Positions 1,805 through 60,740 of a stretch of 64,000 bases of DNA are shown here, piece after piece. The translations under genes and the position numbers were made by a program. The DNA comes from Squalus acanthias. Lineage: Eukaryota. Numbering within the stretch: position 1 is the first letter of the stretch; each line of letters opens with the position of its first letter. Under the pieces are notes generated by a model, which saw nothing but the letters and a program-made list of their open reading frames with translations, made no database searches and was not told where the DNA came from. Where the stretch lies: NCBI GenBank assembly GCA_030390025.1, contig CM059446.1, positions 11,904,001-11,968,000 of the forward strand, in the 5' to 3' direction.

Positions 1805-1879
1805 GGAGCAGCGCTCCGAAAGCTTGTGATTTCAAATAAAGCTGTTGGACTATAACCTGGTGTTGTGCGACTTCTCACT
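1805..1879 (+). mobile_element. Truncated family A Penelope-like fragment
   Basis: ggagcagcgctccgaaagcttgtgatttcaaataaagctgttggactataacctggtgttgtgcgacttctca matches ~25362-25436. Retains helix II and GAAA but lacks the CUGANGA box. Confidence 0.7.
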
Positions 1880-5971: not shown

Positions 5972-6717
5972 GGGCCGGATTTTACAACCCCTACAGGTGC
6001 GTATGAGGTGTGTACGCACCCATAGGGGCCGCGTAAGTGCCGGGTTTAGGCATGCGAAGCGCATGCGCTAAAACCCGGCACTTATGATCTGTTAAGAATC
6101 CTCTTGACAGTTCGCACGCATGCCCGGGAGACGGGCCTCCGTGGGCAGAGAGTTCCGCTTTCTGCACAACCTCCGCCCGCTGAAAGCCTTTAAAAATCTT
6201 ACGCCTGGTAAAAGCCTGCGTAAGGCCTGCTTTTACCAGCATATTAAAAAAAAAAAATTTTTTTCACTCATTTATAATTTTAAAATACTTTTTAAAAAGG
6301 TAAGTTTATTTTTAGCCCTGTAAAAAAAACTTTAATTATTTTTTTCAAAAAATTAAATTTTTGTTTAAAATATTGAATTTAATGTAATTTTAAATATGTG
6401 ATTTAAAAAAAAAATTATTTAATGTTTAACTTTTTTAAGTGATCCCTATTCATACTTTTGACAGATCTGTGCGTAGAGAACTGTCAAAAGTGTGAAGGGG
6501 GATTCCCTTCTTTGATTGGTTCCCCATGGCCCACGTGATCCTAGGGGCGCTTGCGAACCGCATGCGCTCCTGGGATAACTGGGCCTTTGTGCATTTCCTC
6601 GAGCAGAGGCCCAGGATCGGAAGTCTCGGGGCCTACGGAGCCTGCAAGTAAGTGCGTAGATTTTTTCCGATCAGAGGCATCCGCCCGCAGGAAGCCTCTG
6701 ATCAGAAATTCAGACCC
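5972..6717. mobile_element. Non-autonomous TIR element (MITE), PIF/Harbinger-like
   Basis: Imperfect TIR GGGCCGGATTTT / AAATTCAGACCC; GC-rich arms with hairpins (taagtgccgggttt..aaacccggcactta; gatcagaggc..gcctctgatc); AT-rich core. TSD is ambiguous (atg/atg if the left end is 5973). Confidence 0.7.
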
Positions 6718-10077: not shown

Positions 10078-10170
10078 GATTTAAATGATGTTGAAACACA
10101 GCACCTTCTGCAGTCCCTTTTGCCCGAGATGGCTGAACTGGCTCTACGACTACCAGCTGTTTGTACCCAG
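10078..10170 (+). CDS. PARG: PARG internal exon (93 nt, phase 0-0): DLNDVETQHLLQSLLPEMAELALRLPAVCTQ
   Basis: Polypyrimidine tract ending tttttag, donor gtaagt. Aligns by eye to human PARG [31 protein letters not shown] (recalled) and splices in frame to the next exon. Not in the ORF track. Confidence 0.9.
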
Positions 10171-10738
10171 GTAAGTAACGAAACTCAGCGAAGCTTGAAG
10201 TTTCATTTCTTGAAGCCTGGACAAATTCACGTAAGCTATAAGTAATAGAAGGGGTCGGGCTGTTGGGCCTGGGTTATATTTTTTATAAGTTGTCATTATT
10301 ACTCCTTTTGTCATTTCAAATTAAGAATAGTACAATTAAGAATAGCAGCGCAATGGTAGTTGTTTTTTTATATCATTCTGCCAAAGGTGGGAACAATCTT
10401 CAACAGTGAGATATTAACTTAAGTGGATGACTAGGTGTTGTGCACATCAGGTATAGTACATTTAAACAACAGGCGGACCCCACAGAATGGCATCCGACTG
10501 CTGAAATCACTGTTACATTTCTTCTGGTCAATTCCACTTGGGGCTGAGGCATTTTGTTGGAGGCAGACGAAAGGGAGCTTGAGGGCAACATAAATGGAAC
10601 TTTACTCTGTATCCAACTGTGCTCTGCCTGATCTGGGAATACTTAGTGCTCACAGTGAATGCTTAAAATGGAGTGAACCATTGTCCAGCACATAATGAGC
10701 ACAAAAAAATCCCACAAAAAAGATCCGGTTAACTGATT

Positions 10739-11215
10739 ACAACAACAACTTGTATTTATATAGCGCCTTTAACGTAGTAAAACGTCTCAAGGCGCTTCAC
10801 TGGAGTATTATAAGACAAAGTATTTGACACTGAGCCATATAAGGAGAAATTAGGGCAGGTGACCAAAAGCTTAGTCAGAGGTAGGTTTTAAGGAGTGTCT
10901 TAAAGGAGGAAAGAGAGGTAGCGAGGCGGAGAGGTTTAGGCAGGGAATTCCAGAGCTTAGGGCCTAGGCAACAGAAGGCACGGCCACCACTAGTTGAACG
11001 ATTATAATCAGGGATGCTCAAGAGGGCAGAATTAGAGGAGCGCAGATATCTCGGGAGACGGCGGGGTGGGGGTGGGGGCAAGCGAGGGGTTTTGGGGCTG
11101 AAGGAGATTACAAAGATAGGGAGGGGCGAGGCCATGGAGGGATTTGAAAACAACGATGAGAATTTTGAAATCGAGGCATTGCTTAACCGGGAGCCAATGT
11201 AGGTCAACGAGCACA
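10739..11215 (-). mobile_element. L2-type LINE 3' end
   Basis: LVDLHWLPVKQCLDFKIL...GGRAFCCLGPKLWNSLPKPLR..SFKTLLKTYL; (caa)n tail. Confidence 0.88.
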
Positions 11216-11367
11216 GTGATTAGTGATTTATGTGAGTCATCAGGAAAAATAGTTGACAGAAGTGATGTAAATATATATAAATTCCTTGGCTAACAGCAAA
11301 TGTTTTACATTCCAGCAACTAATTTGACACTCCAGTATTGAAGGATTTTAAATCTTCAATATTATTT

Positions 11368-11782
11368 AAGTTATCAGTTGGTAGCACTCTTGCTATTTCT
11401 GAGTCAGAGAGATATGGGTTCAAGCACCACTACAAACTTGGCTGGAATTTCAGTGCAGTACTAAGAGAGCTGCCATTGTCGAATGAGACGTTAAACCGAA
11501 GCCCAGCCTGCCTGTTCAGATGGACAGGAAAGATCTCATTGCACTATTCAAAGAAGAACAGCAAGTTCTTATGATGCACTGCACAGTACTTTTCCTTCAA
11601 CCACAAATATTAATTGGACATTCATTTATTTGCTGTTTGTGGGACCTTGCGATTCACAAATAGGTTGCAGTGTTTGCAAGTATAACAGTGACTCAAACGT
11701 AATTCATTGGCTATAAAGTGCTTTGACACATCCTGAGAATGTGATAAGGTGCTATATAAATGAAAGTATATTCTTCTTTCTT
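11368..11782 (+). mobile_element. tRNA-headed Deu-domain SINE (SacSINE1-like) with L2 tail
   Basis: A box (tcagttggtagcactcttgc), B box (gggttcaagc), Deu-like core atgagacgttaaaccgaagccc, tail aggtgctatataaatgaaagt. Family name is from recall. Confidence 0.75.
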
Positions 11783-14164
11783 CAACTATCAAAATTGCTT
11801 TTTCTGTTTATTTGGCAAAGTAACAGTTTGATTGGTTTCTATATTCAATGAAATAGATTACAATGCAATAGGCCTTTATGGCATGAAGTGTGTTTAAGTG
11901 TATAGCAGCAGTTACGCAAGATAAATGGACTCTTCCCTGAAATTTAGGTAGAATATCACAACACGGGGACTACCAAGAATTCTACGTAGAAAAAAATATT
12001 AGGTGCAGACATTAAATTTTGAGTCATAACTTTGCCATGCAAATTATCATAATTTGTACAATTCTGTTTTATGGGTGCATTTAGTAGTATAAAGAGAATA
12101 ACACTTTGTGTCAGAAGAAAGTACTTTTACAGCAGATTTGAGATGGTACTAAATGTAGTGGATATGCCATGATCTGAAGTTAAATAATATGATCAAATTA
12201 CCTTGATTCGATGGTCATTTCCTTTGCATTACCACATTTTACCTGTCTGTTTATCTTTCCCATGTATAGATTTTAAAAAAACAGTCCTACCAGTTTAGCT
12301 AAAAGTTTAATTCTGCCAGCATGTTGAGACTGACATACTGGGTCAGGGTGGAGACACTGATTTGACGTCAGTGAAAAGCTGTGCCATTGAACAATTAGAG
12401 AGCACTGTCCTTTTTTTTTCTTTCTTTGGTAATGATCTAGAGTGGACATTAATTCCCTGAACCAGTGTCAGGTAAGTACACAGCCATACTTGACTGCTGC
12501 TGTCTTGACGAATTGATGCCCACTCAAGATTGTCAACCTTTTCCTTCATGGATGACGATCTCCATTCTTTGAGACCAGCAGCTCACTGACTCTGTTTATT
12601 CCTGATTTCAGCTGAGCATAAATCAGTGGCTGCAACTGACCTGATGCATCTTGGTCTCTTGAGGGGGCCTAGGCATGGGGGAGCCCAGGTGGGAATGTTG
12701 GGTAAAAACTGAAGTTTGCCGCTAATGGGGCTTTTTTCTTTTAAAATTTGTACTTGGGGAAGATGAAAGGAGGAAATACTGAACAGCACTTTCCTTTTTA
12801 AAATTGCTTGGGAATTAATTACTACTAAATGTATTGGGTTGACTATGAGTTATCTGTTTTGAATTTCTTTTTATGTGTAGTCAGCTTTTTGTGTTGAATG
12901 CAACTATTTTATGAATAAAAGTCACGTTCAATACATAGTGATATTCGTCAAATAGATTGTTGTCAGCAAGAGGACCAAAAATAAATGTACTCTATTATTA
13001 AGGGGTAGAACTACTTCATAACAGTGTATTAGTTATAGAGTAATAGGAAGTGATCACTTTTTCAGACAGAGAGACTTGTATTTATATAGCACCTTATCAC
13101 ATCTCGAACAGTTGACAAGTAATGAAATGCTCCAATCAAATGGTATCCAACTAATCTGCAACTGAAATAAGTCAAATAGACACAAAGACTGAGCCGTTTA
13201 AATACAGTTTTATTTTTGAAAGAGGTGAACTTTTTATGCTCAATGATATGTAGGATATCAATGCTAGGAATTGAATGATTTTCTACTTTCTGAACTCAGC
13301 ATCTGTATTCAGCATTTCCACATCAGGTTTATCGTAGGTTAAGTACATGCTAAAGCTGGCTCCGCTCTGTTCCAGTCATATTTCCCAGTCCCAGTCTCAT
13401 AGATCACCAACTATGTCAGCGTGACATTTCCATTTCTCTCACCAGCCATTCTTGAGGTCTCACTGAGTGATGCTGTCAATTTGGTACAAAATCATGGACA
13501 GTTTTTTATTGTGAAGTGGAACCAGCCAGGACAAGCTCATTTCACTTGGGGGGGGCGGGGTGTGGGGTGGGGCCTTGCAACCATCAGAATGTGCTATTCC
13601 ATCAGTGTGGGCTGGATTATAACACAGGTTCAAGAGGGTGAAAGGACAGTGTTCTAACCAATGCATTATCCAGTTCCCCATCAGATAACCTAGTTGAAAG
13701 AAACAATAGGAGAAAATATTTTTTTTAATTGTATGGCATTATAGAAGGAACTTGTAAAATGTCTGGGGAGGTGTTACGATATGCCATTGACAAAAGAGGA
13801 AAGCAGGTGCAAGCACAGCAGGAGAGCTTTATGCTGCTTATGTAAAGATGGAATTACCAAGAAAGTACAAATTCTGGTTATTCCAGTCTGGCTTGATTCG
13901 ACGAGTGCAGTGGTTACAAACTATCTCTGAAGTTTGTCAGGGGTGGGGAACATGGAGTGAAAGGCTTGAAGCAATGGTTGGGAGTGTTGAAAATACTTGC
14001 GTATGTGTAACATACAGGGAAGTGTGGAATATGAAATGTAAGAATGTGCACTGATAATGATGAGAGTCACCAGACCCTGTTACAGCAAACTTGCAACCAA
14101 ATGTGTTTAATGTTGTTTTATCTTTATTTTTGTCCTTAGTTTCTTCATCATTCTGTTCAATAAG

Positions 14165-14250
14165 AGAAAATGCTGGAAACACACAGCATGTTAGTCAGTA
14201 TCTATACAGAGAACAGACAAGTTTATATTTTAGGAGCGGACCCTTTTATA
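14165..14250 (-). mobile_element. Degenerate family B-like arm
   Basis: gaaaatgctggaaacacacagcatgttagtcagtatctatacagagaacagacaag resembles gaaaatgctggagatactcagcaggtcaggcagcatctgtg. Confidence 0.4.
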
Positions 14251-15759
14251 AAAAAAAATAATAATTCTGTTCAGCTAGGATTTTTGGGGGTAGTGGGGAA
14301 GAAAGATAAAAGTTTGAGCCAAGGGCGATTGTACAATCATTGGCATAGTTGCTTTTACTGCTATCTGACATTAGATGCACTTGTATCGGGGCATGTTGGC
14401 ACTTCATTTTTCCTTACCTTCAAATGGGACAACTTGCAATGGTTTTCCACTTAGAGACCTTATGTAGAGCTGATACAGTTCATTACCAACATTCATTTTG
14501 GATGCTCAAGTGACACGTAGTACTGGTGTTCAAAACCGTAGCCATTTGCTTGGGAGAAAGGTACATTTGGTCCTTTACTTTCAAGCATTGTGAGAGTACT
14601 GGAAAATGGACTTTGACTTTAAATTGTATATATTTTATTTATAAAATGTTTATCCTGGATTAAATGCAAAAATGTCCAGTTCAACAAAGTTTTCTTTTAA
14701 TTCTAAAACTTCAGCTTTGATTCAACTGCGCATTTGAAAATAGGAGAAAATAAATTTTTAAAGGTTGTATGGCATTATAGATGGAATTTGCAAAATGTCT
14801 GGGGAGGACCTTTGTATCCTTCAGGGTTACTTGACACTATTGGAAGTAAAATTAAAAGAATAAATTTGTTATGTCATCTCTTAAATCTTAAAAGCAGACC
14901 TCTACAGATTCAGGCATAGCCATTCTGCCTTGCTTTAAGCTCAGTGACTGTTTGGTTCAATTATTAAATTAAAAATTAACAAGATTACCATTTTCATTAT
15001 TAATCCTTTAAGAGAAGCAGATCCATCACTATCCACTGATGTGCTTTAAACTGCTGTCAAAGGGCAGTGGTCTAGTAAGATTACTTAAGTTTTTGAAATA
15101 GAGCAGTGCTACAATAACTTTTACGTCATTTTTGCTGGATAATGCCTTCCATTAAGTGCTGTTTTTATCTAACATGATGGTGAAGCTCTTTGTCTGATAA
15201 ATGGCAGAATCCAGATTTGAGGTAACACAGGCGCTGTAGTGGTTCCTTAGTGCTTGTGACCTATCACCGGTTTAATAAGACAGAAAATTGAATGGCTAAA
15301 TGTGGATCAATAAAGATGCTGCTCATTCTTCATGGCTGATTGGAATCTGTTGGTGATTGCCAAGGACTTAATGTGGAGATTAATGATTAGCTGATACCAA
15401 GTGCTCTTATGTACTTTGTTCTGGCTGAGGACTGTAAATCAACCAGTTGATACTGTGGAAAAATAATTGTTTTTAGTCATTCTGAACTAATTTATAGCTT
15501 CTGTATAAAAAAGACGGATTTTTTGTAGTCTTGAAATCTCCTGCATGCCTTTCTGTAGGGTGCATCCATTCTTGATGATGGGCAAAATTCAGTTCAGACC
15601 TTTTTAAAAATCCTGATGCCTTCTATTAATTTCACTGAATTATTTACCTGGGAGAACATTTAACCCCATTCCACTTCCACAGATTTTATTGCCGTTAGTC
15701 TTTTGAATCATAAAATTCAACACGGTAGAGAGCAAACTTACAAGGTTTTTTTTTGTTTT

Positions 15760-16055
15760 ATTTTCCTGCCTTCGATTTTCTCCTCTCTACTGCTGAAGAC
15801 ACTGACTCATGCTGGGATCAGTTTCTGCAGCCGCCTTTAGGTGTCTCATCCACATGCTGTTCTTCATGTGTGAGCTCAGACAGTGAGTATCAAAAGTGAT
15901 TCAACCATGGGGAACAGAATGGCCGAAGGTGAGGAGGTCCTCACCCGACATCCACACGTGAGCATTATACAATGGGGGTCACCGGATCATGGTTTAGCAT
16001 AAGAATTTTTGCTGTGTTTTATCCCCTTCCTGGAAATTCTGCGGCTAATTGTAGT
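15760..16055 (-). mobile_element. Second SINE-like family, interrupted by the SINE at 16058; appears to resume at ~16510-16560
   Basis: Antisense homology to 40890-41200 (ttcttcatgtgtgagc vs ggctcacacatgaaga; ctgaagacactgactcatgctggg vs ccagcatgaatctacaccttcag). Confidence 0.6.
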
Positions 16056-16057
16056 TA

Positions 16058-16500
16058 GCTGGGCTTAGTTGGTGGGCACTCTTGTTTCTTGGTCAGAAGG
16101 TTGTGGGTTTGAGTCACATACCAAAGTTAATGAGCCCATAATCTAGGCTGACACTCCAGTGCAGTACTGAGGGAAGTGCTGCAGAATACATAGTTTGAAA
16201 TCTCATCTGAAGAATCTAAGGCCCCATCTGCCTGTTTGGTGGTTCAAGTGCAAGTTAAAGATGCCATGGCCTACTCAAAGAGTAAGAAGTTCTCTTGGGT
16301 TCCTTGCCAACATTCCTACCATAACAAAAAGTAAATTAACTGGTTGTTCATTTTATAACTGTTTATAGGATGTTGCTTGTGCAGAATGGCTACCATGTTT
16401 GCCTACATAAATACAGTTGCTGCTCTTCAAACTAATTCATTATCTGCAGCGCTTTAAGATATTTTGACATGATGAGACATGACAGAAATGCAAGGATTTT
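16058..16500 (+). mobile_element. SacSINE1-like SINE
   Basis: ggcttagttggtgggcactcttg..tcagaaggttgtgggtttgagtc..ctaggctgacactccagtgcagtactgaggg; colinear with 11368-11782. Confidence 0.75.
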
Positions 16501-16564
16501 TTTTTTAAGTGTCCCTAATGCCACTGCTGACTGAGATCAATAAATTCCACACAGGAGCTTAGAT

Positions 16565-17080
16565 CTGTGGACATTCAGAAAGCCTTTGACAAGATACCAC
16601 ACAGGAGACTATTGGAGAAGATTAAGGGGTATGGAATTAGGGGAAGGATAGTAAACTGGATTAAAAATTAGTTAGAAGGGAGAAAACAGAGAGTAGGAGT
16701 TGAGGGTATTTTTTCAGAGTGGTTGGAAGTGGATAGTGGTGTTCCACAGGGTTTAGTTCTGGGGCCACTATCAATGACTTGGATATAGGCCTAGAAGGAG
16801 TGGTACTGAAATTTGCAGATAATACCATTTTAGTTAATTCTTTAGAAGACCAAAGGAAGCTGTAAAGAGATATTGATAAGATGGGGGAATAAGCTAAAAA
16901 GTGGTAGATGGAATTCAGTGTGAGGTGATGCATTTTGGTAAAGAAATAACAGCAATAATTATACTCTGAATGGAAGTAGACTCAGTGCTGTGGAACAGCA
17001 GAGGAATTTGAAGGTACACGTGTGCATGATTTTAAAAGCAGCACCTCAGGTTGATAAGGCTGTAAAAAAAAAAAAAGCTC
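16565..17080 (+). mobile_element. Degenerate CR1 RT fragment
   Basis: gacattcagaaagcctttgacaagataccacac (D.QKAFDK.PH), agtggtgttccacaggg (SGVPQG), aaatttgcagat (KFAD); contains stops and frameshifts. Confidence 0.85.
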
Positions 17081-17099
17081 CAGGAATTCGAGGAATTCA

Positions 17100-17390
17100 C
17101 CATCCTAAAGCCTATAACTATTCTCATCATGATCATCTACTTTTCCAAGTTTTGTATCATCTGAAAACTTCAGAATACTGCTCCCTACACTCGTGTCGAG
17201 GTTGTTTATAAAAATTGAAAAGAGTAATGGACCTAAACCTGACCCTTGGGGAACATCACTGCAGACCACCTCCCAGTCTGAAAAAACATCCATCCACCAC
17301 CACCTTTTCCTTCCTGTCACTGAGCCAGTGGGAAACATCCATACCGCCACTTTCCCCTTAATTCCATGGGCTTCCACCTTCTTAATAAGC
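17100..17390 (-). mobile_element. CR1 RT fragment
   Basis: ORF 17105..17377: VPQGSGLGPLLFSIFINNLD...LKFSDDTKLG. Confidence 0.88.
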
Positions 17391-17393
17391 CAT

Positions 17394-17635
17394 AAAAACA
17401 GAAAATGCTGGAGATACTCAGCAGCTCAGGCAGCATCTGTGAAGAGAGAAACAGAGTTAACGTTTCAGGTCGATGACATTTCGTCAGAACTGGAGTTCCA
17501 GTTCTGACGAAAGGTCATCGACCTGAAACGTTAACTCTTGTTTCTCTCTTCACAGATGCTGCCCGACCTGCTGAGTATCTCCAGCATTTTCTGTTTTTAT
17601 TTCAGATTTCCAGCATCTGCAGTATTTTCTTTTTG
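17394..17635 (+). mobile_element. Non-autonomous Penelope-like mini-element (family B), near-perfect palindrome
   Basis: Arms ~17392-17494 and 17497-17600 are inverted with a 2-nt spacer, followed by tail ttcagatttccagcatctgcagtattttc. 15-bp TSD ttcttaataagccat at 17379-17393 and 17636-17650. Confidence 0.82.
17500..17536 (+). ncRNA. Minimal type I hammerhead ribozyme motif (family B)
   Basis: AGUU-CUGACGA-A-AGGUC-auc-GACCU-GAAAC-GUU-AACU. Helix I AGUU/AACU, helix II AGGUC/GACCU, palindromic helix III (ACGU), cleavage triplet GUU. The antisense copy at 17455-17491 has one helix II mismatch. Confidence 0.72.
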
Positions 17636-18406
17636 TTCTTAATAAGCCATCTTTTCTCGTAACCTCTCTCTGCCTCCCGTAATTAACTTTTTCAATTCCC
17701 TGCTGTATTAATTGGAGAGGAAGGGAAGGTGACGTAGGTTTGGTATTTTGTCAGCAGTCACGGTATATTGCAGGGACTTTAAAGAACTGAGAGCTGTTGA
17801 TTGGGGTCCATTTGGTAGGCCATTAATCTGGTTGTTGAAATGTCTGAGAACGCTATTTGTTTGCCTGAGACCTGGTATTCCTAAAAGCTGCTCATGTCAG
17901 TTTCTCCCTTCACCAATAATTGAATTTTAATCTGGAGCATGCATGAAATGTTGGTGCTCTACTTCTAACCAGCCACCTGACTGATAATTTATTTTTCTTA
18001 CTTTTCCAATGGATTTACGTGACTTACTGTATTAAAGAATTGAAAACATCTTGAAGTACTCTTATTAGAATAAATAGTGTTTGTAACAGGCTTACTGTGA
18101 TGAATATTACCAAGTTTTTAGTTGGCAACATATGCTGCCTTTGTATGAAGCGCATACATTTCGAGCGATTCAGGAGCAGTCATCTGATCCATACTGATGT
18201 TAACTTTATTAATTACATTAATAATATAACAGCAGGAAAATAAATTACTTCGACATCAGTTAAGCATCCTCATAGGATATAAATACAGTTTCAATTAATT
18301 ATAATTAGTATTTACTCTTGAGTTTTGCTCAATTTTTAGATTCAATAAGGTATATCAACCTAATATTTGTGTGCTTGGAATGTCTTTAGCTCTAGTAAAT
18401 GACAAC

Positions 18407-18610
18407 TTAATATTCAAAAATCTATCGATCTCTGTCTTGAGTATATTCAAGACAGAGAGCGATAGATTTTTGAATATTAAAGGAATCAAGGGATATGGGA
18501 ATAGTGCAGGAAAGTGGAGATGAGGTAGAAGATCAGCCATGATATTGAATGGCGGAGCAGGCTCAAAGGGCCAAATGGTCTATTCCTGCTCCTATTTCTT
18601 ATGTTCTTAA
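18407..18610 (+). mobile_element. CR1 3' end with 5' fold-back palindrome
   Basis: CR1 3' UTR (gatcagccatgat..gaatggcggagcaggctc..cctgctcctatttcttatgttctt); 18407-18440 is the inverse of 18447-18480. Confidence 0.85.
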
Positions 18611-18954
18611 CTATATGAGGCTAGAAGCAGTTTTTAGAAAGAGTTTTTATACTTACAAGGCAATGCATTTTTCTATGACATGAAGTTAATGAAAGAAGGC
18701 ACAATGCAAAACTAAAGATGCAAGTAAATATTATAAAGGGAAAATGGCAAGTGTACCAAATTAGGCTGAATGTTTTTAAAATCCAAGTATAACATTCAAG
18801 AGGCACTAATAGGTTATTTATATTTGGAACCTGAAGCATACTAATTACATCCCAGCTTAGATCAGTTCAAATAATTGTATAATTCTTTGCTGTTTTACTC
18901 CTAGCGTGCAAGTATGAGTCAGTGGCACTGCAGAAACATGATTATTTTCATCAT

Positions 18955-19696
18955 GGCCCAGAAATTGATCTCGCTCTGTTCCCGCGGGGGTAAGCCTTCC
19001 CCGCGATGTCTCACCTCGCTTATGCTTTTTCTGATCCAGCTCGCACGAACTTGATGTTCCAGACATCAGCTGTGCTGGGCTTGCGTATCCCAGCGGCGCA
19101 GTTAATTCGTGCGAGCTGTGGGATCACGTGACTCAGTTAGAGCCAATGGCAGCACACCATCTTCCATTCATAAGTCTCACAGCATGGCTGTGAGACTTAT
19201 GAATCTTACACCCCCCCAAAATAACAGCTAAACCTCAATTAAATTAAAAAAAACCCATCACATTAATAAAATAAGTATAGTTAATTAAATTAACCATTTT
19301 AAATAAAAAATTAAATTTTTGAAAAAATTTAAAATCTTTTAAAAAGTTATAAAAATAAACTTACCTGTCTTTAAAGTCTATAAAAAAGATATACCTGTAA
19401 AAAAAAATTCAAAAAAATACTTAATTCACTACTTACCTTCTTAAAAGCGGGTCTTACTCCTCCTTTTTACATTTCCAAAATCTTCCCTACTTACCTGCGC
19501 GTCCAAAGCATGAAGTGCACAGCGTGCGCGCAGCCTGTAGCGCGCACGCGATGCAGCCAGGCCCCGCCCCCTTTTCGGAAGAGCAATTGCCGGTTTTCAG
19601 CGCATGCGCAGGGCATGCAGAAAACCGGCAATTGGAGTGGGAATACGCGAGAGTATGCAGTGCGTACTCTCGCGTCCCGGGATCAATTTTCGGCCC
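18955..19696. mobile_element. MITE, PIF/Harbinger-like
   Basis: TIR GGCCCAGAAATTGATC / GATCAATTTTCGGCCC; 3-bp TSD cat at 18952-18954 and 19697-19699; subterminal hairpins; AT-rich core. Confidence 0.8.
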
Positions 19697-21294
19697 CATG
19701 TCTCTCCACACTGAAAATACCAGTTGCTGGCAAAACCAAATCTGGAAATTGATCAACAGTTTGATTCCAACTGGTTTTGCTCGAATTCAGGTGCAGATCT
19801 TGCAACAAGAGGTCTGCCAGAATTTAAAGCAATTTGCAACTGGATATCCATGTAGCATCTTTACAAGAAGCTGGAAACAAAAGTGCATGGGAATGTTGGG
19901 GTGCTCCAGTTTTCAATTCCTAGTGAAACCATGGGATGATAACGGCCCATGTGTTGAAATGTTGTTCCACATTATGTTGAACTGTGCTTGTGGAATCTGT
20001 TTCCTCCTTTGTCACAAAGTAGTTGATTTTGTCAGCACTTTTAGCCACAACTCAGTTTTTTTTAAACTATTGAATTTAAAGATTTTAGTGATTTCTAAAG
20101 CATGTGCAAAAATTGTAATTGTGCAATTAACAAAATCAACTAATTCCATAAAATAGAAAGGCACATTTTGAGAGTATTCCACTGTGCCAGGCTTTGCCAG
20201 CTGTACAAGTGTTGGGTGAGTGGGATATGTTCATACCAAAATTAGCAGTTTTGTTTCATGTATCCTGAATAGTTTGTTGGGAAAAATGTATTGAATTTTG
20301 TGCCCCAGCAGTGTGCCTTAGCTGATCCAAAAGAGCGTCCCCTATTGCAACACTGTATATTTTGCACGCCATCAACCCTTGTGGCTTCTCTGAGGGTGCT
20401 TGCTCATTGTCAACAAAACAATTCCAGCAGCAATTGGGTTGAGATTACCCAAATGCATGTCATGTAGACTGGAAAGATTTTCAAGCCCAATTCTGAAGTG
20501 AAAGGATGGTATATTACATCAACCAATTTCCCCTTCACCCCCCGCCCCCAGAAAAAATTGTATCTTTGCAGGATCTGTCACTTGGCCTAATCTCCAAATG
20601 CAGTATAAAAACAGAAGATCCGGATCATTCAGAGAAAAAGGCTAATTTGTAAAAGTAAAAAAGAATTATTTCTGAATTCTGGTTGAAATCTACTTCTGTA
20701 AAAACAAATGCTAAGTGACCATTTTATTCTTATTATTTAACTTCATGGTTCATCTCACGAAGCTTCACTTCAAAATGTGGAAATGGAAACTGAAATTCTG
20801 CTTTAATGGTAATATTTTCAGTTTTATATATCTATTAGATAGGGGGTCCATATAAAACTCAATGCAAATACACAGCCCAACATTGTGACAGAAAATCAAT
20901 TTGGATAAAATAGCATAATTTGTTTTCGATTAACTAGGACATAATTATAATTTAAAACATTAATCTTTTAAATGACAATGAGCTGGTGTGAATTAAGAAG
21001 AACAAGAAATGCCCCCTCCCTTATTCCAGATAAAAGAATGCAGGCTGTATTGTGACCCTTGTACAAAATATTGGGAAGAAGCCAATCTATTTTTTTCTTG
21101 AGGTTGTTTTGAGAGTTTTTAAGACATTGGGAATCAGTAATACCTCGAATAAGAACATTTTCCGATCAATCGAGAGAAATAAGATTACTGCCACAATGCT
21201 GCTTGTAGAACGTAGCAGTGTTCCTAAATTGCCACATGTACTATAATTTGGTAAATGTAAGTTTGCTTCTCTGTTTGCTAAATTGCTAAACTAA

Positions 21295-21483
<189 letters not shown>

Positions 21484-24635: not shown

Positions 24636-25075
24636 ATGACACACTCCTCAATTAATGTGTTGTGTGTTGCATGGTATTATTGTTAGCTTGTAGAGATTAA
24701 CAATCTCTTTCAAATTATTAGGATCAACTGCAAACCAATGTGGTGGGAACATTGTGTTTAATCAGAGTTTAAGACGGAATATAACACACTAGTTGTACAG
24801 CAGAAACATACGACTGTGACGAGCAGCTGGTACCGGTCCCGATTGGACAGACGGCTAGCATGCGTGAACAGTTCTCCGGCTTACGGCCTTTCTCCCTCTC
24901 GTCTAGAACCTCCAAGAATGGGTTGAGTCCGCTCCCGGAAGAGTGTTAGACCAGCCCCACTCTTGTATGGCTCTCCCTTCCACTGTCTGTGCTAAGGGCT
25001 TTTCAGGTCTTTCTCTTATACCCTTTTTTAGAAGTCGCACAACACCAGGTTATAGTCCAACAGTTTTATTTAAAA

Positions 25076-25113
25076 TTACGAGCTTTCGGAGCTGCTGCCC
25101 CTTCGTCAGGTAA
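25076..25113 (-). ncRNA. Minimal hammerhead ribozyme motif, identical antisense copy
   Basis: Exact reverse complement of 25351-25388. Confidence 0.72.
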
Positions 25114-25350
25114 AGGTACAGTGAGGGAATCTATTACACAGTATATATACACAGAGAGCACAGTATATATACACAGTATCTATTACACAGTATATATACA
25201 CGGACACGTTGGACCCCCTGTGACCCACCTCATTGTCTTAGCTGTACTCTGATGTGTCTTTGATGTAATGCCTCCCTAACAGATTGTATCACTGCAGACA
25301 AATTGCTCTCTGTGTATATATACTGTGTAATAGATTCCCTCACTGTACCT

Positions 25351-25388
25351 TTACCTGACGAAGGGGCAGCAGCTCCGAAAGCTCGTAA
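25351..25388 (+). ncRNA. Minimal type I hammerhead ribozyme motif (Penelope-type)
   Basis: UUAC-CUGACGA-A-GGGGC-agca-GCUCC-GAAA-G-CUC-GUAA. Helix I UUAC/GUAA, helix II GGGGC/GCUCC, loopless palindromic helix III AGCU, cleavage triplet CUC. Confidence 0.75.
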
Positions 25389-28300
25389 TTTTAAATAAAA
25401 CTGTTGGACTATAACCTGGTGTTGTGCGACTTCTCATTTTTGTCCACCCCAGTCCAACACCGGCATCTCCGCGTCATGACCCTTTTTTAGGGGTGGGCCT
25501 GATGTAAAATATGGACAGGACCGTTTAACCTGTAAGGTTCTCTTCCTAAACCAAGGTGCCCAATGGCACGTTGAGTTCTTTGTCTCAACTTCGAGATGAA
25601 GATCCTCCCTCCAGGAGGGGTCTTCACAATCATTACACATGCTTTATTGTTTATACGTTTTGAAGGCCTACCCATCGGAATTTCTCTTATCTCCCTTGTC
25701 CCTATCCTCCCTAGTTTGGAGCCATTCTCGGCTATCGGATGTTATCAGTTATTTATGTTCATGCTGTTCATGCAGCTTTAGCTATGCAAAACTAACTTTT
25801 ATTATCAGACTATTGTACCATGGAATGAATCATTAAATTCCCAAAGATATCTTCTATTCTATTCTCATACACTGGTTAACTTACGCATTTTGAAGCAGTT
25901 TTGTAAAACAAAGTCAAAATCCTAACTTAGCATTATAATATGGTTATTAGCAGTAATGGAAGAAACATAGGTGTTGGGCCTTCAAAAACAACCTTCCTAG
26001 CACACAAACAGCAGACAGCTAGCTTGGAAACAAGGTCATATAACATTTTACACCGTGACAAGTCATATAACATCCGCAGGGAACCAAAACATAAGCAAAT
26101 TCTAAGCATCTATCCAGTTATTCTAACACCAATCTGAAGAGACTTTTTGTCTCAAGTTCTAATACATTCATGTAAACACAGTCTTATTCGCATCACAATT
26201 TCATTCGCATAACCCCATATATTTTGGACACCACTGATTTCTAACAATGTTTCTGTGATTATAAAACAGTTTGCCCTACATTACAACAGTGACTGCTCTT
26301 CAAAAAAATACTTTGTTTGCTGTAAAGCGCTTTGGGATGTCTGGTGGTCGGGAAAGGCTCGATATAAATGTAAGTCTTTCTTTCTCCAACTTGCAGTACG
26401 CAATGCCACAGGAGATCCACTGCTGCTGTTCCAGAAAACCCTCAAATGTTTGAAATATTTTTGCACTATTAAATCTATCAGTATTTCTTTTTGCAATGCA
26501 TGTTTTTGAATGTGCTCCCAGGTGCAGTGCAGTGTTCTGTCCACATTGTTATGCTCTGCAATCTTAAATAACTTGAACCATAGGCTCACAGAAATTAGAG
26601 CACAGAAGAAAGCCATCCAGTGAAGTTGTCTTCTGCTGGGACTAGCCCTTCAACTGGAGCTATCTACTCCAATCTCATTGCTAATAATAAAAAAAGTTAC
26701 TATAGTTGTGAACATAACGGTATCCATAGTAGGAACAGTAACTGCAACAATGCTTAGCAACAAATCCAGATGTGCATGCAGTGAAGCACAATGATGGAAA
26801 CATCCTGTTCGTCGACCTATTTGTTTTCCCTGTTGACTTGCATGTTAACTTGTGAAACCCTGAGTACATCCACATTTTTTGGGTGAGGAAGTAGGAAGTT
26901 TGTTAATACATTGCATGATCTAACCACTGTGCCTAAGTAACAACAGTGACTGACTGTACTTCAAAATCAATTAGTTGGATGTGAAGTGCTTTGAGATAGC
27001 CTGATGGATGTGATGAGGTGCTGTCTAAATGCAAGTTCTTTCTTACACGACTAAGAGTGAAAATAATTCCAAATATATTCTAGAAAATGACCAGTCTGAT
27101 GAATTGTAAGTATAAGGTTACATAGATTACTTTTACAAAGCTAATAAGAAATTGCTATTGAAAAAAATAAAGATTGGTAGATTTAAAAAGTTAATTTGTG
27201 AGAGAATTATATAACTATAAAAAAAAAAGTCAAAGTGTGCATATTGTAAGATTTTAAAACTGATCACAGGGTTAATAATTTTTGAGACACTTCCAAAAAG
27301 CTCTTTGGAGCAAAAAAGTGGAAATAGCAGAAGTTGACAGTAATAATGTGCTATGCCTTATTTAAAATCAGTTCAAGCATGCAGACTTGCATTTCTAGGC
27401 ACATAAGTAGCAACAATATCTAGCCTATGGTATGAGAGATTTAGAAATGGTTAGGAGCATTGTATTTATTTAGTGTTGAACCTTAGAATGTCAAACTTTT
27501 TGTGTTGTTCAGGAGGTGAGATGATGATTGGTTGTCTTTGACGGTAGCCTCTATTACAGTACATTTAACAATACAACCATGTTGTATCACAGCACACTTC
27601 GCCCCTTTTAAAAAATACTCGTTGCTTGCAATATTGCTTAAATTCCTGATGAAATAACATTACTAGTAAGGTCAAGTTGTAAAGGAAAAGTACTTGCTGA
27701 TCTGTGTTGAGGTATATATTGTGTATGCATAGTTTGTAATTATGAAGAGAAGTCTTATTTGTGGTATTCCAGAAGAGGCAAAAAGAAGTTCTGTTATGAA
27801 TGAGGAGCAAATTAATAAGTATGAGTATTCCATTCATAAGACATTTCCGCTCATATTTACCTAAAAAAAAAGGTAATTAAACATGTCGTGTTCAGAATGA
27901 TTTTCAATTTGATTTAATATTATAAAGTGATTATAAAAGACGCATTACAGTAAACAACATAAATTATGGCAGTAATGAGCATCATCTGGTGATTCTTAAG
28001 AGTAAATTATCCAATTCAATTAATCTAACATAGTTAGAGGACAGCAGAGTAATGTCTTAATATAATTCTTGTTGAAGGCACACCAAAGTGTTCAAAAACA
28101 GTTTCCTTAGCTTCCTGCCTTTCATTGGCAGCCTGCTCCCTGTGAGTTCATGGATAGATGGGCTCCAGTCACTGAACCAACCTTTCGGTAAGGGTGCATT
28201 TATTCTGCAAATACCAGTCCGAGACTGGCAATATCAGTTTCAGCCAGGCAATATTAATTTCTACTGCCTAGCCTAGCTTCAGCTGCAATGCTCTGGCCCA

Positions 28301-28976: not shown

Positions 28977-29151
28977 TAAAAACAGAAAATGCTGGAGATA
29001 CTCAGCAGGTCAGGCAGCATCTGTGAAGAGAGAAACAGAGTTAACGTTTCAGGTTGAAACACCAGATGCTGCCTGACCTACTGAGTATCTCCAGCATTTT
29101 CTGTTTTTATTTCAGATTTCCAGCATCTGCAGTATTTTCTTTTTGTATTAG
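28977..29151 (+). mobile_element. Family B Penelope-like mini-element with central deletion
   Basis: Same arms and tail as 17394-17635, but the centre including both CUGACGA boxes is missing. 14-bp TSD ttgagaaactgtta at 28963-28976 and 29152-29165. Confidence 0.8.
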
Positions 29152-41200: not shown

Positions 41201-41499
41201 GAAAAAACACAGATATATCTGATATAAAATAGTACAAACGATCATTTAATTTGTAAATCAATTGAAATGTGAATCTGAACAAAAGTGCATTTGCCTGCTC
41301 TTTTGGGGTCCATTTTATGAAATGGAAATAACTATTGTAGCCACTTCAGCAGAATTCGCAATAGAGATGGAATTTGATTACCAAATCAGAGGTTGATCAG
41401 ATAATGAGGCTTTCACATCTGTGCTCCTTGACTGAATTGCACCCAACAGATTGATCAACCATAGTTTTTTGTGACTCTTGAGGCCCTTTTGTACTGGTG

Positions 41500-41907
41500 C
41501 CAGTGGGCTATTTGCACTGCAAGTACAGGAGCTGGGGGGTCTTGTTAAACCAGTGGGCTATTTGCACTGCAAGTACAGGAGCTGGGGGGTCTTGTTAAAC
41601 CAGTGGGCTATTTGCACTGCAAGTACAGGAGCTGGGGGGTCTTGTTAAACCAGTGGGCTATTTGCACTGCAAGTACAGGAGCTGGGGGGTCTTGTTAAAC
41701 CAGTGGGCTATTTGCACTGCTAGTACAGGAGCTGGGGGGGTCTTGTTAAACCAGTGGGCTATTTGCACTGCTAGTACAGGAGCTGGGGGGTCTTGTTAAA
41801 CCAGTGGGCTATTTGCACTGCTAGTACAGGAGCTGGGGGGTCTTGTTAAACCAGTGGGCTATTTGCACTGCTAGTACAGGAGCTGGGGGGGTCTTGTTAA
41901 ACCAGTG
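41500..41907. repeat. Minisatellite, 8 copies of a 50-51 bp unit
   Basis: Unit ccagtgggctatttgcactgc(a/t)agtacaggagctggggggtcttgttaaa, head-to-tail with no spacers. Confidence 0.97.
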
Positions 41908-44106
41908 CCAACTTCAATATGAACCACTGATTGGTTAAAAGTGGGTTTTTCCACCATTGGATTTAGCAATTCCAGCTGGCTTACATTGGGGTTCCAGCTG
42001 GCTGCACGAGACCTCAGTGGTGCAAACACCATTGCCAAGAACATAAAGGGGCCTTTTGGCGGTAGTTGTACTGTGCTGTTAGTCTGAGACTTGAAGGTGC
42101 AGATTGCATTTCATAGCTGGCAAGACCTGTTTCATTGCCTTCTGTAGTGATGTTTCCTACAGCTTGAGTGGCTTGTTAGACCACTTCATAGGACATTAAA
42201 GGTCACCAGTGTCATGTGTAGGCCAAACCAGGCAGGTTTCCTTCTCTGAAGGGCAATAGTGAACAAAGTTGAGTTTTTAAAACAATCCTCCTTTCAGTGT
42301 CATTTTTGTTTCTGGTGACAATCCACAAATTACCAGAATTATTGGATTTAGTTTCATAACTTGGTACGGTGTGAGTTGAACTCACCGCCTCTGGGTTGTT
42401 AGTCTAGTGCATTAATCACTATGTTCACATCCATGTATAGAACTCCACTCCAGAAAAATTGTTTGTTTTAAGAGCGCAGAGGGACAACCTGCTTTCTCAA
42501 CATATAAAAGCCTTTGCATAAGTCAGTAAGGTGCCCCTACGCAGTGTCAGGCCCCGAGATGTGTGAAAGGCCTCCCTGAAGGAGTTTCACACCACTGCAT
42601 TCCACAGTTGGATTGACTCCTGACGCCAGAGTTTACTCAAATGGAAACTGCTTTGCAGTGATATAATTGTACCCCAAATGTTTCCTATTTTAAGTAAAAG
42701 CCATTTATTTAAAATCAATGCTTGTAACAGGCCATATTTAGAATATGTATATTCAAAGTGGAATTTTAATAGTTATATATTGAGGCTTATAAAAAATATG
42801 AAAATTGATCAGTTAGCGAAGAATTACAAGATGCAGCATATAAAACTTTCAGAATTATTAAGATAAAATGCAAAAGGTAACAGAAAAGTTACATTTGAAC
42901 AATTGAATTAAAACAAACCTTGTCACTACTCAAATTATAGAAAATAAACCATTCAGCATCATTAAAAAGAACAATCCAGGCATCAACTAGGTAATTATTT
43001 GTATAATTGGATAACCCCATTAATAATTAAAAGATGAAAATCACTCCGATGGAAGTTAGCAAATATAAAATGGCTTCCTTAAGAGAGCAGGATAGTTAAT
43101 TGAAAGTGCATTGGAGTACTCAGGCTGTGCAGAGCAGCATGGATATATTTAATGTCTATGGGATAGCAAATTGGAAATAATGTTTTCCCTTTAAAATACA
43201 ACGCATAATAACCAACAACAGAAGGAAAGTACAGTGCACTAATATTCAGTAAACGGCTTTAAATAGTTTTGTCACTGTGCTAACTCTAATATAAAAAGTA
43301 GGGATTACCCAGGAAGCTTAGTTATCCTGAAGGCTATCCTGTATCAAAAAAACTGGTTTGCCCATAAGGCATGCAGCAGTTCACCCGGCTGATGAAAAAC
43401 ACATGTCACTTTAGTTTGGCAGTGAAATCAGTCGTATACGGGAATCGGCTTTCAGAAATGATATCTATAGCCTGAAGGGCTTTTACTGCATCAGCCTAGA
43501 TTTAGCAATTTCATTCCCAACCTTGTTATTTGAAAGGCCCTGAGAGTGATATTTATATCTAGGAACAATGACATGATGTAGAAAGCAACTAAATAAGCTG
43601 TGCAGTCGGATGAGGGAGCGAATACTTGTCATACAATAGACTAGCATTTACTTGGGTCTGGCAAAGGAACAAAAGACAATGGTATTACATTCAAGGGTTT
43701 TCAGAGTGGAGCATTACATTATTTTGAATACTGCTTGAGGGGTTAAAACATAAAAACAAAATTAAAATGAGCATGAAAGATACACAATTCATTAAGAATT
43801 TCCTTGGGTATTCACTTGTTTCAAAGGCTTTTTGAAAAGAATGAGACCAGTGAGGAGTAAAGAGATGAGAATTAATGTGTATTTCTTTGTTACAGCATTC
43901 AGCTTCTTTTGTCACGATTTAGAGTACCCATGTTTTATTTCATTACAATATTCAAGGTTGCTGCAACCATAATCATTTATTTAGCCAGTTTGACATTGGC
44001 TGTATGAGAAATGTCTTGAGCCATTAATACAAATTTGATTTTCTTGTTGTCTTTCTCCTCCCTCTCATTTGTTTTTGTTGAGGAAAAATGTTTTCTTGAG
44101 TTTTAA

Positions 44107-57539: not shown

Positions 57540-57694
57540 ATAGCAAAATACTGCGGATGCTGGAAATCCGAAATAACAACAGAAAACGCTGGAAGAACTC
57601 AGCAGGCCAGGCAGCATCCGTGGAGAGAGAAACAGAGTTAACGTTTCAGGTCGAAGACCTTTCGTCAGAACTGGAAAAAAGCAAGAAATGAAAT
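57540..57694 (-). mobile_element. Family B Penelope-like mini-element, single arm
   Basis: Reverse-strand homolog of the family B arm plus tail. 14-bp TSD agaatagtaatatg at 57526-57539 and 57695-57708. Confidence 0.8.
57636..57672 (-). ncRNA. Minimal hammerhead ribozyme motif (family B), intact
   Basis: Minus strand reads AGUU-CUGACGA-A-AGGUC-uuc-GACCU-GAAAC-GUU-AACU; only the helix II loop differs from 17500-17536. Confidence 0.72.
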
Positions 57695-58407: not shown

Positions 58408-60537
58408 TGATTTAATTATAATTGAATATAATCAAAGCTGCTCCTGAAAAAAAATTCTACTAAGAATCTAGTTTAGTTTATTGTTTTGAAAGTAAAATGG
58501 TGCACTTTTTAAAGATTCCAGCAAATTTTGGCTGATTTCCGTGCCGAACACATTCTCAAGGACCATTGCACTATACTTAATGAGACAATTCTGAAAATTG
58601 CATTCTCCACAAGCCATTTCTTCACTGCATTGTGATCCTCCTCTTTAATTCTTACATTTCTGCACTATTAAGAATCTTGCTGCATATTTCTATTAGTGGT
58701 TGTTTATGTAATGTATGAGTTTATCTATAAATTGTATGTATTCCGGAAATTTTGTGTTTATAGATTCACATACGTAGTATATGTGACTTTGTTATTTGAT
58801 GTGCACGCGCAATCAAATTTTTAAGTACGTGATAGGCTGCAAACTGACCACCTGCCGACGACGAGAGACTATCTTCCCCCTCTCAACTTTGAGGAGATGT
58901 AAAATAATAGGGAGGAAATGGCTCCACATTACAATACTTCTGTCACAAAGATTTGGGAGTTGTCATAAATTCAGAAGTTTAAAAAAAAATCTCAAATTGA
59001 TCCTGCATTGCCACTGAGAAAATGTCAGCTCTTGAAAATAGTCCCAATTATTTTCACAAGAGCATGAATGCCAGGTTAGGCTGGCATACCTGAGTGTGTG
59101 TGTGTGTGTCTTCTCGAATATTAGAGCAGGTTCTTTGAAAAGCAAGAAATATTTTTGTACATTGGTTGGTCTCTTTCTCCCCCCCCCCCCCCCCCCAGGC
59201 CACCTCCCACTCTTTTATCTGTGTAAACAGGTAATGAGTAGATTCTTGTGAATAAATTACGACAACACCAACTCGTCCATCGCTGACAAGATAGATACCT
59301 GAAGCTCGTTTATTATGAGTTATTCCCTGGAGGCTTTTAAACTGGCTGGCTGTTACTTTCACTGTTGAGTGAATCACTGTATGTGAGGAAGGTAAACGTG
59401 TGCTACAATCAGTCTCCATTAAGTGACTTTTTTTTCCTCTCCAAGCTTGTTTTCCTCCAGCTTCTAGCAATCAGCTGTATCCTGCTGATTAGAGTACTTG
59501 ATTCAGTACTTAGTCTGTTTAATTCAAACTTGCTTCCAATTAGTCGTTGAATTCTGATAGAAACTGAACAGGGTGATAAAAGTCAGGACGGTACCTGTTG
59601 TGTGTGTAAAATGATGCAATACAATAAATAGAACACTGTCAATACCAACAAAAGCAGACTTTTATATAAAAAATTACTGCTTGCCAATTTGAAGGTTTGA
59701 TCAATGATGAATAAAAGCAGTGCATTACCAACAATTAGTAATAGATCAGTGAGTTAATAATTTGCTGACTTATTTTATACCTGTAATTTTTTGTGTGTGG
59801 CCTCAGAGAGATTATGCAGTGCACCCATTGCGGATTGAAGCAAATACATGCTATGATTTTATCAAACAATTTAAAGGAGAAGAATTCTCCAAGGATAAGT
59901 ACAGTGAGTGGCCAATACTTAAGGGCAAGGGATCCCTTGTAACATGTCTGCTGCTTGAGATGGTTGTCACTTATGCTGCGTATTATCTTTTTCAAAAACT
60001 AGATTTCCACAGTCTTTGCAAAGGTATTGGCTGCACTGGCGGATAAGACTGCAGTCAGTCAGTTTGCACAGAGACCAGTGATATGTTGTAAAGCACACTG
60101 TGAAGTATCCCCTTGCCCTGCATCGTCCCAGTGTGTCTCCAGCATTCATTGCTAATGAAATTAGATCAATGTCGGGCTCTACAACAGAGCTTTGGAAATG
60201 TTTTTTTTAAGTATACATTATTTTAAATACTAACTATACAGCAGTGATCTTGGGGTAAGCTCCCATTCCCGGCACAGACCGCCTCCTGTGCAGTAAATTT
60301 CTATGATTCTAAATATTTTTACGTTGCTTTAAATAAGCAATTAATAGGGCAAAACTTCTAAATTGATACAAACAAAATATTCTGAAGGAATTAAAGCATT
60401 GTTAATTCTTTAACACATTTAGATGAATAAAAATCAGGTCTCAAGAAAATACAGCTAATTTGATGAGAATGCTTTGTGAGTACAATATTTCAGTGAGTGA
60501 ATTAAAATCTACTAAAAATAGTTTTGCAAATTCTAAC

Positions 60538-60740
60538 GCAGCTGAGAAGAGAAAAGGCAGCTTAACATTTCAGGTGAAGACTCCTCATCAGAACATGGAT
60601 TTGAATTCTGACAAAGGGTCTGCACCCCAAACATACGCTAACTAATATTTATCTCTCTAGAGATGCCGAAAGGCCTGCGATGTAGGCCCTTCATTTCTGC
60701 TTTTAATTCAAATTTACAGCTTTGGCAGTTCTTACTTTTT
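60538..60740. mobile_element. Old, degenerate family B-like inverted element
   Basis: ttaacatttcaggtgaagactcctcatcagaa (minus-strand CUGAUGA...GAAA) faces ttctgacaaagggtctgcaccccaaacat, followed by a decayed tail. Confidence 0.5.

What the first reader, a model, noticed from the sequence alone, without database searches (positions are those of the whole stretch)
17379..17650. Second, sequence-unrelated family of hammerhead mini-elements: ~100-bp-arm palindrome with 15-bp TSD
Seen: a 242-bp insertion made of two inverted arms with a 2-nt spacer and a short tail, flanked by ttcttaataagccat. The + arm folds as AGUU-CUGACGA-A-AGGUC(auc)GACCU-GAAAC-GUU-AACU. Compared with family A, the core (CUGACGA+A, GAAA) is identical while all three helices differ yet still pair (UUAC/GUAA vs AGUU/AACU; GGGGC/GCUCC vs AGGUC/GACCU; AGCU vs ACGU). 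Inference: this covariation within one window argues for a real ribozyme fold rather than chance.
Basis: partly seen in the sequence, partly recalled or inferred. Interest (0 to 1): 0.75.

Follow-up and report, generated by a model that had tools for sequence, protein, structure and literature searches.

The report
Dead Penelope retroelement end with hammerhead
This is a short, mirror-image insertion of the end repeat of a Penelope-like jumping gene, carrying that group's known minimal self-cutting RNA motif in a form that is predicted to be folded shut here, so it is a correct catch of an ordinary kind of repeat.

Summary
In detail: a 242-bp insert between exact 15-bp repeats, arms of about 103 bp that are 96% alike, a 35-nt one-sided tail, and a minimal type I hammerhead (17500-17536). 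A strict descriptor finds 4 such motifs in the window and none in 200 shuffles. The anatomy matches the described end product of Penelope-like element (PLE) insertion: inverted pseudo-LTR + pseudo-LTR + tail + TSD. Tens of thousands of public contigs from three organisms match; their 3' ends pile up at the two tail boundaries, hundreds run on upstream into parental sequence, and their central joints vary. TSDs are 12-15 bp and unrelated, and a one-armed copy has its own TSD, which argues against a MITE. The 'covariation' is between two unrelated families; none was seen within family B. Helix III forms only between two molecules, the left-arm motif is mutated, and in this copy (a PARG intron) the arm-to-arm hairpin buries the ribozyme in the folding model. 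The parent ORF was not seen. One lead: two diverged copies turn around at the same point, about 8 nt before the core. The scan reported such motifs before, here and in other shark-like genomes. New member of a known kind; low interest.

The parts
17379..17393 (+). Left target-site duplication (15 bp; last 2 nt also fit the inverted arm)
17394..17494 (-). Inverted arm: tail-less copy of the repeat, outer end at the proximal 3' boundary (equivalent to 17598-17600)
17455..17491 (-). Left-arm hammerhead, helix II broken by a substitution at 17478 that most other copies lack
   Evidence: table 3; fails the descriptor
17495..17496 (.). Centre of the palindrome, about 8 nt 5' of each core; the two cores are 16 nt apart
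17497..17600 (+). Direct arm (pseudo-LTR body), with a 1-nt insertion near 17539 that the window's other close copies lack
17500..17536 (+). Minimal type I hammerhead: helix I 17500-03/17533-36, core 17504-10, bulged A 17511, helix II 17512-16/17520-24, GAAA 17525-28, 4-nt palindrome 17528-31, predicted cut after 17532
   Evidence: compared with PMC4209133; cleavage not tested
17601..17635 (+). 35-nt one-sided tail
   Evidence: 3' ends of other copies cluster at 17601-02 and at 17628/17636 (table 7)
17636..17650 (+). Right target-site duplication
17105..17393 (-). Target: edge of a decayed LINE reverse-transcriptase fragment
   Evidence: RVT_1 E=5e-4, below Pfam's cut-off; multi-copy depth; the label CR1-like is recalled
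57540..57694 (-). Same family, one-armed copy with intact hammerhead, 26 nt upstream of the core, tail and its own 14-bp TSD (57526-39 / 57695-708)
28977..29151 (+). Same subfamily, asymmetric inverted copy without the hammerhead core; same tail-less left end, tail on the right, 14-bp TSD (28963-76 / 29152-65)
60537..60740 (+). Old inverted copy (71-80% identical to the one-armed copy), both cores decayed, cores also 16 nt apart; no TSD found
14160..14263 (-). Old one-armed copy, core decayed; possible 10-bp TSD
25032..25478 (+). Family A, for comparison: 131-bp identical arms, 143-nt asymmetric centre with short re-copied pieces, 44-nt one-sided tail, 12-bp TSD (25020-31 / 25479-90)
10171..21321 (+). 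Host context: interval between two PARG coding exons (10081-10170 and 21322-21483); the intact hammerhead is on the gene's sense strand

Best explanation
The insert is a dead-on-arrival product of a Penelope-like retroelement: a pseudo-LTR with its tail, joined head to head to a tail-less inverted copy, in a staggered cut that left a 14-15-bp TSD. Shown in the sequence: anatomy, TSD, tail, motif, high copy number, variable architecture among copies. From the literature: the PLE protein nicks and extends both target strands and starts reverse transcription at two sites inside the RNA that bound the tail (PMC11167929). Inferred, most likely route (about 60:40 over fold-back): each nick primed one cDNA, one from the distal start (arm with tail) and one from the proximal start (arm without tail); both ran to about 8 nt upstream of the hammerhead, at an RNA 5' end or a stall in the U-rich tract, and were joined head to head. 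The template was uncut RNA, since the cleavage site lies inside both arms. The hammerhead was selected in the parent element, where two copies pair through the 4-nt palindrome and cut as a dimer, probably weakly. In this copy it is a passenger: the arms form a hairpin of about 100 bp in either transcript direction, and the sequence is decaying.
For: One-sided tail of 35 nt here, about 40 nt at 29.1 kb and 44 nt in family A; the tail-less end falls at the same boundary in both young inverted family-B copies. Among the 24 of 1731 loose-end rows shown, 3' ends pile up at 17601/17602 (270/248 contigs in X6), 17628 (638/983/1068 in X5/X6/X9) and 17636 (336/580/631); 265/381/336 contigs continue upstream of 17496 into a shared non-palindromic sequence. 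657 central joints were listed, and the 15 shown have varied left ends (17430-17502). TSDs of 15, 14, 14 and 12 bp share no sequence, and a one-armed copy has its own TSD. The same layout (inverted pLTR, 31-bp one-sided tail, 8-10-bp TSD, palindromes at pLTR 5' ends) is described in PMC3846280 and PMC8557442. The motif has the bulged base between 9 and 10.1 and the palindromic 15.2-16.2 of PMC4209133, which also reports opposite-strand pairs 100-700 bp apart; 15 of its 56 listed motifs share the CG-UU stretch (counted by eye). A pattern built from this hammerhead hit 2 loci in the metagenome collection, and 1 of the 2 (L002) lies 161 nt behind a GIY-YIG ORF end (PF01541, 24 bits, above cut-off). 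Folding: helix I and II probabilities 0.0 in the whole insert; forcing the hammerhead costs about 56 kcal/mol (-123.2 vs -179.4).
Against: No Rfam hammerhead model matches, at gathering score or at E up to 10. Family B has A10.1-U11.1 where the published consensus has G-C (A-U in about 2-3 of 56 listed motifs, by eye). Two diverged inverted copies share the same centre, and 9 of the 15 joints shown restart at 17501-17508, which a fixed palindromic master would also give. Self-cleavage was not tested; in bioRxiv 2026.07.22.740005 only 1 of 9 tested Xenopus dimers cleaved.
Confidence: 0.87

Rival explanations
1. The palindrome is itself a replicating non-autonomous unit (a PLE-dependent SINE-like family with a fixed centre); asymmetric and one-armed copies arise by deletion or truncation.
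For: Identical 16-nt core-to-core spacing in the 17.4-kb and 60.6-kb copies, whose arms match the one-armed copy at 89-93% and 71-80%; right-arm restarts cluster at 17501-17508 in 9 of 15 joints shown; palindromes are prone to central deletion (general knowledge).
Against: The 17.4-kb and 29-kb copies share subfamily letters in both arms but no arm-specific difference. Hundreds of contigs per run continue into upstream parental sequence. A one-armed copy with different upstream bases has a clean TSD. Family A shows the same layout with another centre. A palindromic RNA would be double-stranded and a poor template (inference).
Confidence: 0.08
2. DNA-transposon MITE whose long inverted repeats happen to hold a hammerhead-like motif.
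For: Short, non-coding, palindromic, very high copy number.
Against: The inverted repeat stops 35 nt before the right end; TSDs are long, of varied length and unrelated; a one-armed copy has its own TSD; the motif is absent from 200 shuffles and recurs in an unrelated family.
Confidence: 0.02
3. The copy has been co-opted by the host as an active intronic ribozyme or regulatory hairpin of PARG.
For: It lies in a PARG intron with the intact motif on the sense strand; a 100-bp hairpin could be an editing or small-RNA substrate (general knowledge).
Against: Ribozyme helices are not predicted in context. The only other intact sense-strand hammerhead in the window is family A, with a different palindrome and its own inverted arm. 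Private changes lie in both arms. Contigs from organisms B and D begin exactly at the right TSD with 17 unmatched letters beyond it, a weak hint that the site is empty there (records 24 and 32; letters not shown).
Confidence: 0.03

Closest known systems
Minimal hammerheads (min-HHR) in pseudo-LTRs of metazoan PLEs (Cervera and De la Pena 2014, PMC4209133)
   Same: Type I core, bulged base before helix II, short helix I, no intramolecular helix III, palindromic 15.2-16.2, U-rich upstream, several unrelated families per genome, single and opposite-strand copies.
   Different: A10.1-U11.1 instead of the usual G-C. No cartilaginous fish name (Callorhinchus, shark, Leucoraja) in the searchable supplement file (file 1 could not be searched). 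Parent ORF not seen here.
Inverted-pLTR insertion units of EN+ PLEs, e.g. Adineta vaga Pen2a/Pen3a (PMC3846280) and the general scheme in PMC8557442 Fig. 2
   Same: Inverted 5'-truncated copy next to the 5' end, 30-40-nt tail on one side only, TSD, palindrome at the pLTR 5' end.
   Different: No ORF between the repeats (pLTR only); TSD 12-15 bp against 8-10 bp in A. vaga.
Poseidon element of Anolis (PAc), in vitro (PMC11167929)
   Same: Two 3' boundaries that define the tail; copies keep the uncut hammerhead, in line with cleavage not being needed for insertion.
   Different: Clade of the present family unknown; nothing tested biochemically; the parts read do not model the inversion.
Animal non-LTR retrozymes (PMC7229834, listing only; bioRxiv 10.64898/2026.07.22.740005)
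   Same: Non-coding, pLTR-derived, type I hammerhead, reported also in one chondrichthyan genome.
   Different: Retrozymes are head-to-tail tandem repeats with two same-strand ribozymes; this is head-to-head with opposite-strand motifs, so it cannot release a monomer.

Membership tests
PLE minimal hammerhead | Conserved core CUGANGA / GAAA / UH | tested here: met
   right arm and the one-armed copy
PLE minimal hammerhead | Unpaired base between positions 9 and 10.1 | tested here: met
   A17511; feature from PMC4209133
PLE minimal hammerhead | Palindromic 15.2-16.2, no monomer helix III | tested here: met
   4-nt palindrome 17528-31; intermolecular duplex -6.2 kcal/mol
PLE minimal hammerhead | G10.1-C11.1 pair (usual, not universal) | tested here: not met
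   A-U here; family A has G-C; A-U also in about 2-3 of the 56 published motifs (by eye)
PLE minimal hammerhead | Self-cleavage as a dimer | not testable with these tools
   needs an in vitro assay
PLE minimal hammerhead | Compensatory changes within the family | tested here: inconclusive
Penelope-like element insertion | 30-40-nt tail at one end / two 3' boundaries | tested here: met
   35 nt; end clusters in public contigs
Penelope-like element insertion | Optional inverted 5'-truncated copy at the 5' end | tested here: met
   3 of 5 family-B copies in the window are inverted, 2 are one-armed
Penelope-like element insertion | TSD of variable length and sequence | tested here: met
   15, 14, 14 bp (family B), 12 bp (family A); none found for the 60.6-kb copy, 10 bp possible at 14.2 kb
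Penelope-like element insertion | Repeat adjoins an RT + GIY-YIG ORF in a parent copy | tested here: inconclusive
MITE | Terminal inverted repeats at both ends | tested here: not met
   35-nt unpaired right end; one-armed copy
MITE | Short TSD of fixed length | tested here: not met
   14-15 bp, unrelated sequences
Non-LTR retrozyme | Head-to-tail units with two same-strand hammerheads | tested here: not met
   motifs are on opposite strands
Rfam hammerhead families | Covariance-model score at gathering threshold | tested here: not met
   0 matches in the window; at E up to 10, 11 sub-threshold matches, none a hammerhead model

The most novel reading that the evidence does not exclude
This family has a fixed turn-around point about 8 nt 5' of the hammerhead core, set by a defined RNA 5' end (a transcription start, or processing beside the acceptor-like pyrimidine tract + CAG that overlaps helix I). 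A short pLTR-only RNA would then be mobilised in bulk as a PLE-dependent SINE, and its tens of thousands of copies would record, base by base, a two-primer insertion in which each strand uses a different start site. That would give a genome-scale test of how PLE inversions and tails form, which the literature read calls undefined.
Probability: 0.2. Interest if true: 0.45.

Novelty: new member of a known kind. Interest (0 to 1): 0.2.

Why it matters
As a class it is known since 2014. Its use is practical: such very abundant palindromes are easily filed as MITEs or miRNA hairpins (Rfam gives only sub-threshold miRNA hits), and they add long double-stranded RNA to introns. The family's size in at least three organisms makes it a good data set for the open question of how PLEs build inverted ends.

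Tried and rejected
Family patterns found nothing in viral contigs, nothing in the first metagenome and genome scans, 2 unrelated loci in the second metagenome scan and one 23-nt match in a bacterial genome that does not extend and is taken as chance (L003). The L002 protein found no relatives in viral contigs. No RNA holder is on record; X21 is only guessed to be RNA and holds contigs, so expression, strand, editing and the cleavage site could not be read, and contig depth was not used to rank parts of the element. No contig piece listed spans the whole site, so the empty site is not shown. The automatic alignment of six motifs misplaced family A, so pairs were counted by hand and no covariance model was built. 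Lunse et al. 2016 is not held; only its title in a reference list was seen. Searches for a paper on this family or on two-primer insertion in PLEs showed none in the listings (20 of 80 listed); subscription journals, Repbase/Dfam entries and bioRxiv supplements were not visible and may describe it. Earlier-findings look-ups by sequence, by nearby place and by mechanism words were empty.

Full report
Observation. The 15-mer occurs exactly twice in the window and encloses 242 bp; 5 of 1500 random window pairs shared a word of 10 nt or more. The arms match at 96.2% over 104 columns, the centre is 2 nt and a 35-nt tail lies on the right only. The hammerhead reads as stated, with a predicted cut after 17532. 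A descriptor requiring the core, helices I and II and a palindromic 15.2-16.2 finds 4 motifs in the window, two of family B and two of family A, and none in any of 200 dinucleotide shuffles. Rfam has no matching hammerhead model at gathering score or at E up to 10, where 11 sub-threshold hits, mostly miRNA hairpins, appear.

Context. The insert lies between two PARG coding exons on the + strand, at the edge of a decayed reverse-transcriptase fragment (RVT_1 below cut-off). That the host is a cartilaginous fish rests on my recall of its repeats and on earlier scan notes, not on a test here.

The family. The window holds five family-B insertions: this one; an asymmetric inverted copy at 29 kb without the core; a one-armed copy at 57.6 kb with an intact hammerhead; an old inverted copy at 60.6 kb; and an old one-armed copy at 14.2 kb. 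TSDs are 15, 14 and 14 bp in the three young copies and share no sequence; none was found at 60.6 kb and a 10-bp candidate at 14.2 kb. The unrelated family A has the same layout: identical arms, one-sided 44-nt tail, 12-bp TSD, but an asymmetric centre with re-copied pieces. Laying 4 of the 24 listed runs on 17150-17900 placed 38,948, 63,595 and 67,139 contigs from organisms A, B and D, and 2,948 from a run guessed to be RNA; depth is concentrated on the insert. In the 24 of 1731 loose-end rows shown, 3' ends pile up at 17601-17602 and at 17628/17636, and 265, 381 and 336 contigs continue upstream of 17496 into a shared sequence that is not the mirror arm. Of 657 joints, the 15 shown have varied left ends, and 9 of them restart at 17501-17508. 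None of the 40 of 111 variant rows shown falls in the right-arm hammerhead; the left-arm break at 17478 is a minority letter. Two contigs from organisms B and D start exactly at the right TSD with 17 unmatched letters beyond it, a weak hint of an empty site.

What it is. These features match PLE insertions as described. PMC3846280 (parts 1-3 of 5 read) describes an inverted pLTR, a 31-bp tail on one of the inverted repeats, 8-10-bp TSDs and palindromes at pLTR 5' ends. PMC8557442 (passages) gives the same scheme and calls the route to these structures undefined. PMC4209133 (parts 1-2 of 4, and parts 1-2 of 3 of supplement file 2; file 1 not searchable) defines the minimal hammerhead, with a bulged base before helix II and a palindromic 15.2-16.2, reports several unrelated families per genome and opposite-strand pairs 100-700 bp apart, and finds no monomer cleavage and low dimer cleavage. 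By eye, 15 of its 56 motifs share this motif's CG-UU stretch. One departure: family B has A10.1-U11.1, seen in only about 2-3 of the 56. As outside support, a pattern built from this hammerhead hit 2 metagenome loci, and one lies 161 nt behind a GIY-YIG ORF end; that locus is not DNA-similar to the family, so the family's own parent ORF remains unseen.

How it most likely arose. PMC11167929 (parts 1-2 of 4) shows that a PLE protein nicks and extends both target strands, starts at two internal sites that bound the tail, and does not need hammerhead cleavage. My inference is that each nick of a 14-15-nt staggered cut primed one cDNA, one from each start site, and the two were joined head to head. 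This accounts for one arm with and one without tail, the same tail-less boundary in both young inverted copies, subfamily letters shared by both arms and variable centres. Fold-back of a single cDNA with later resolution at the tail boundary is the alternative (about 40%). Both arms contain the cleavage site, so the template was uncut.

Does the ribozyme work here? Probably not. In the whole insert the pair probabilities of helices I and II are 0.0, and forcing them costs about 56 kcal/mol; in the isolated 39-nt motif helix II is at 0.98-0.99 and helix I at 0.3-0.7. Helix III needs a partner molecule, and the only other intact sense-strand motif in the window has a different palindrome. These are equilibrium predictions, not assays.

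On the covariation argument. Between families A and B, 7 of 10 variable pair positions change on both sides, 1 on one side and 2 not at all (by hand). This shows that two unrelated repeats obey one motif, the pattern already published. It is not covariation in a statistical sense, and within family B no compensatory change was found in the five arms examined.

Results against my reading and an open lead. The cores of the 17.4-kb and 60.6-kb copies are both 16 nt apart, and joints cluster near the same point, so turn-around is not random. A stall at the U-rich tract, or a defined RNA 5' end, would explain this within the PLE model; a fixed palindromic master cannot be fully excluded without the genome. 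The sample is 2 of 3 inverted copies and 15 of 657 joints.

Novelty. Eight literature searches showed no paper on this family in their listings, but Repbase, Dfam, subscription journals and bioRxiv supplements were not visible. bioRxiv 10.64898/2026.07.22.740005 (parts 1-3 of 5) reports pLTR-derived retrozymes in one chondrichthyan; those are head-to-tail and differ from this. PMC6765202, PMC8969392 and PMC6155905 were seen as passages. Earlier scan notes reach the same class verdict on other DNA of this and other genomes; they are not independent evidence. Verdict: new member of a known kind, interest 0.2.

Noticed in passing
window 10081-58280: Six PARG coding exons on the + strand (10081, 21322, 44122, 48493, 53164, about 58120), five of them 87-98% identical to P0007.
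   Followed up: partly
window 57660-57694 (minus strand): Upstream of the hammerhead in the one-armed copy is a pyrimidine tract ending in CAG that overlaps helix I, like a splice acceptor; PMC4209133 notes an intron end at helix I in Drosophila Penelope.
   Followed up: no
window 60592-60607 and 17488-17503: Same 16-nt spacing between opposite-strand hammerhead cores in two diverged insertions.
   Followed up: partly
window 25161-25303: Centre of the family A insertion contains short re-copied pieces of the left arm, which looks like repeated template jumps.
   Followed up: partly
window 1805-1877: Truncated family A fragment that starts inside helix II; no TSD found.
   Followed up: partly
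window 41434-41940: Tandem array with a 50-nt unit.
   Followed up: no
window 6035-6383 and 19284-19633: Two dispersed copies, in opposite orientation, of a GC-rich repeat; possibly a DNA-transposon family.
   Followed up: no
L001 3241-3444, 3748-3848, 3995-4033: Two palindromes beside a hammerhead-like motif with a 6-bp helix I in an unrelated metagenome contig; no PLE-like ORF among the 3 ORFs listed.
   Followed up: partly
L002 118-1148 (minus strand): 3' end of a PLE-like ORF (Cys motif, GIY-YIG) followed by a minimal hammerhead with imperfect helix I.
   Followed up: partly
Rfam RF04021: The mir-3492 model consensus contains a hammerhead-core-like stretch in its 3' arm; it may itself derive from such a repeat.
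   Followed up: no
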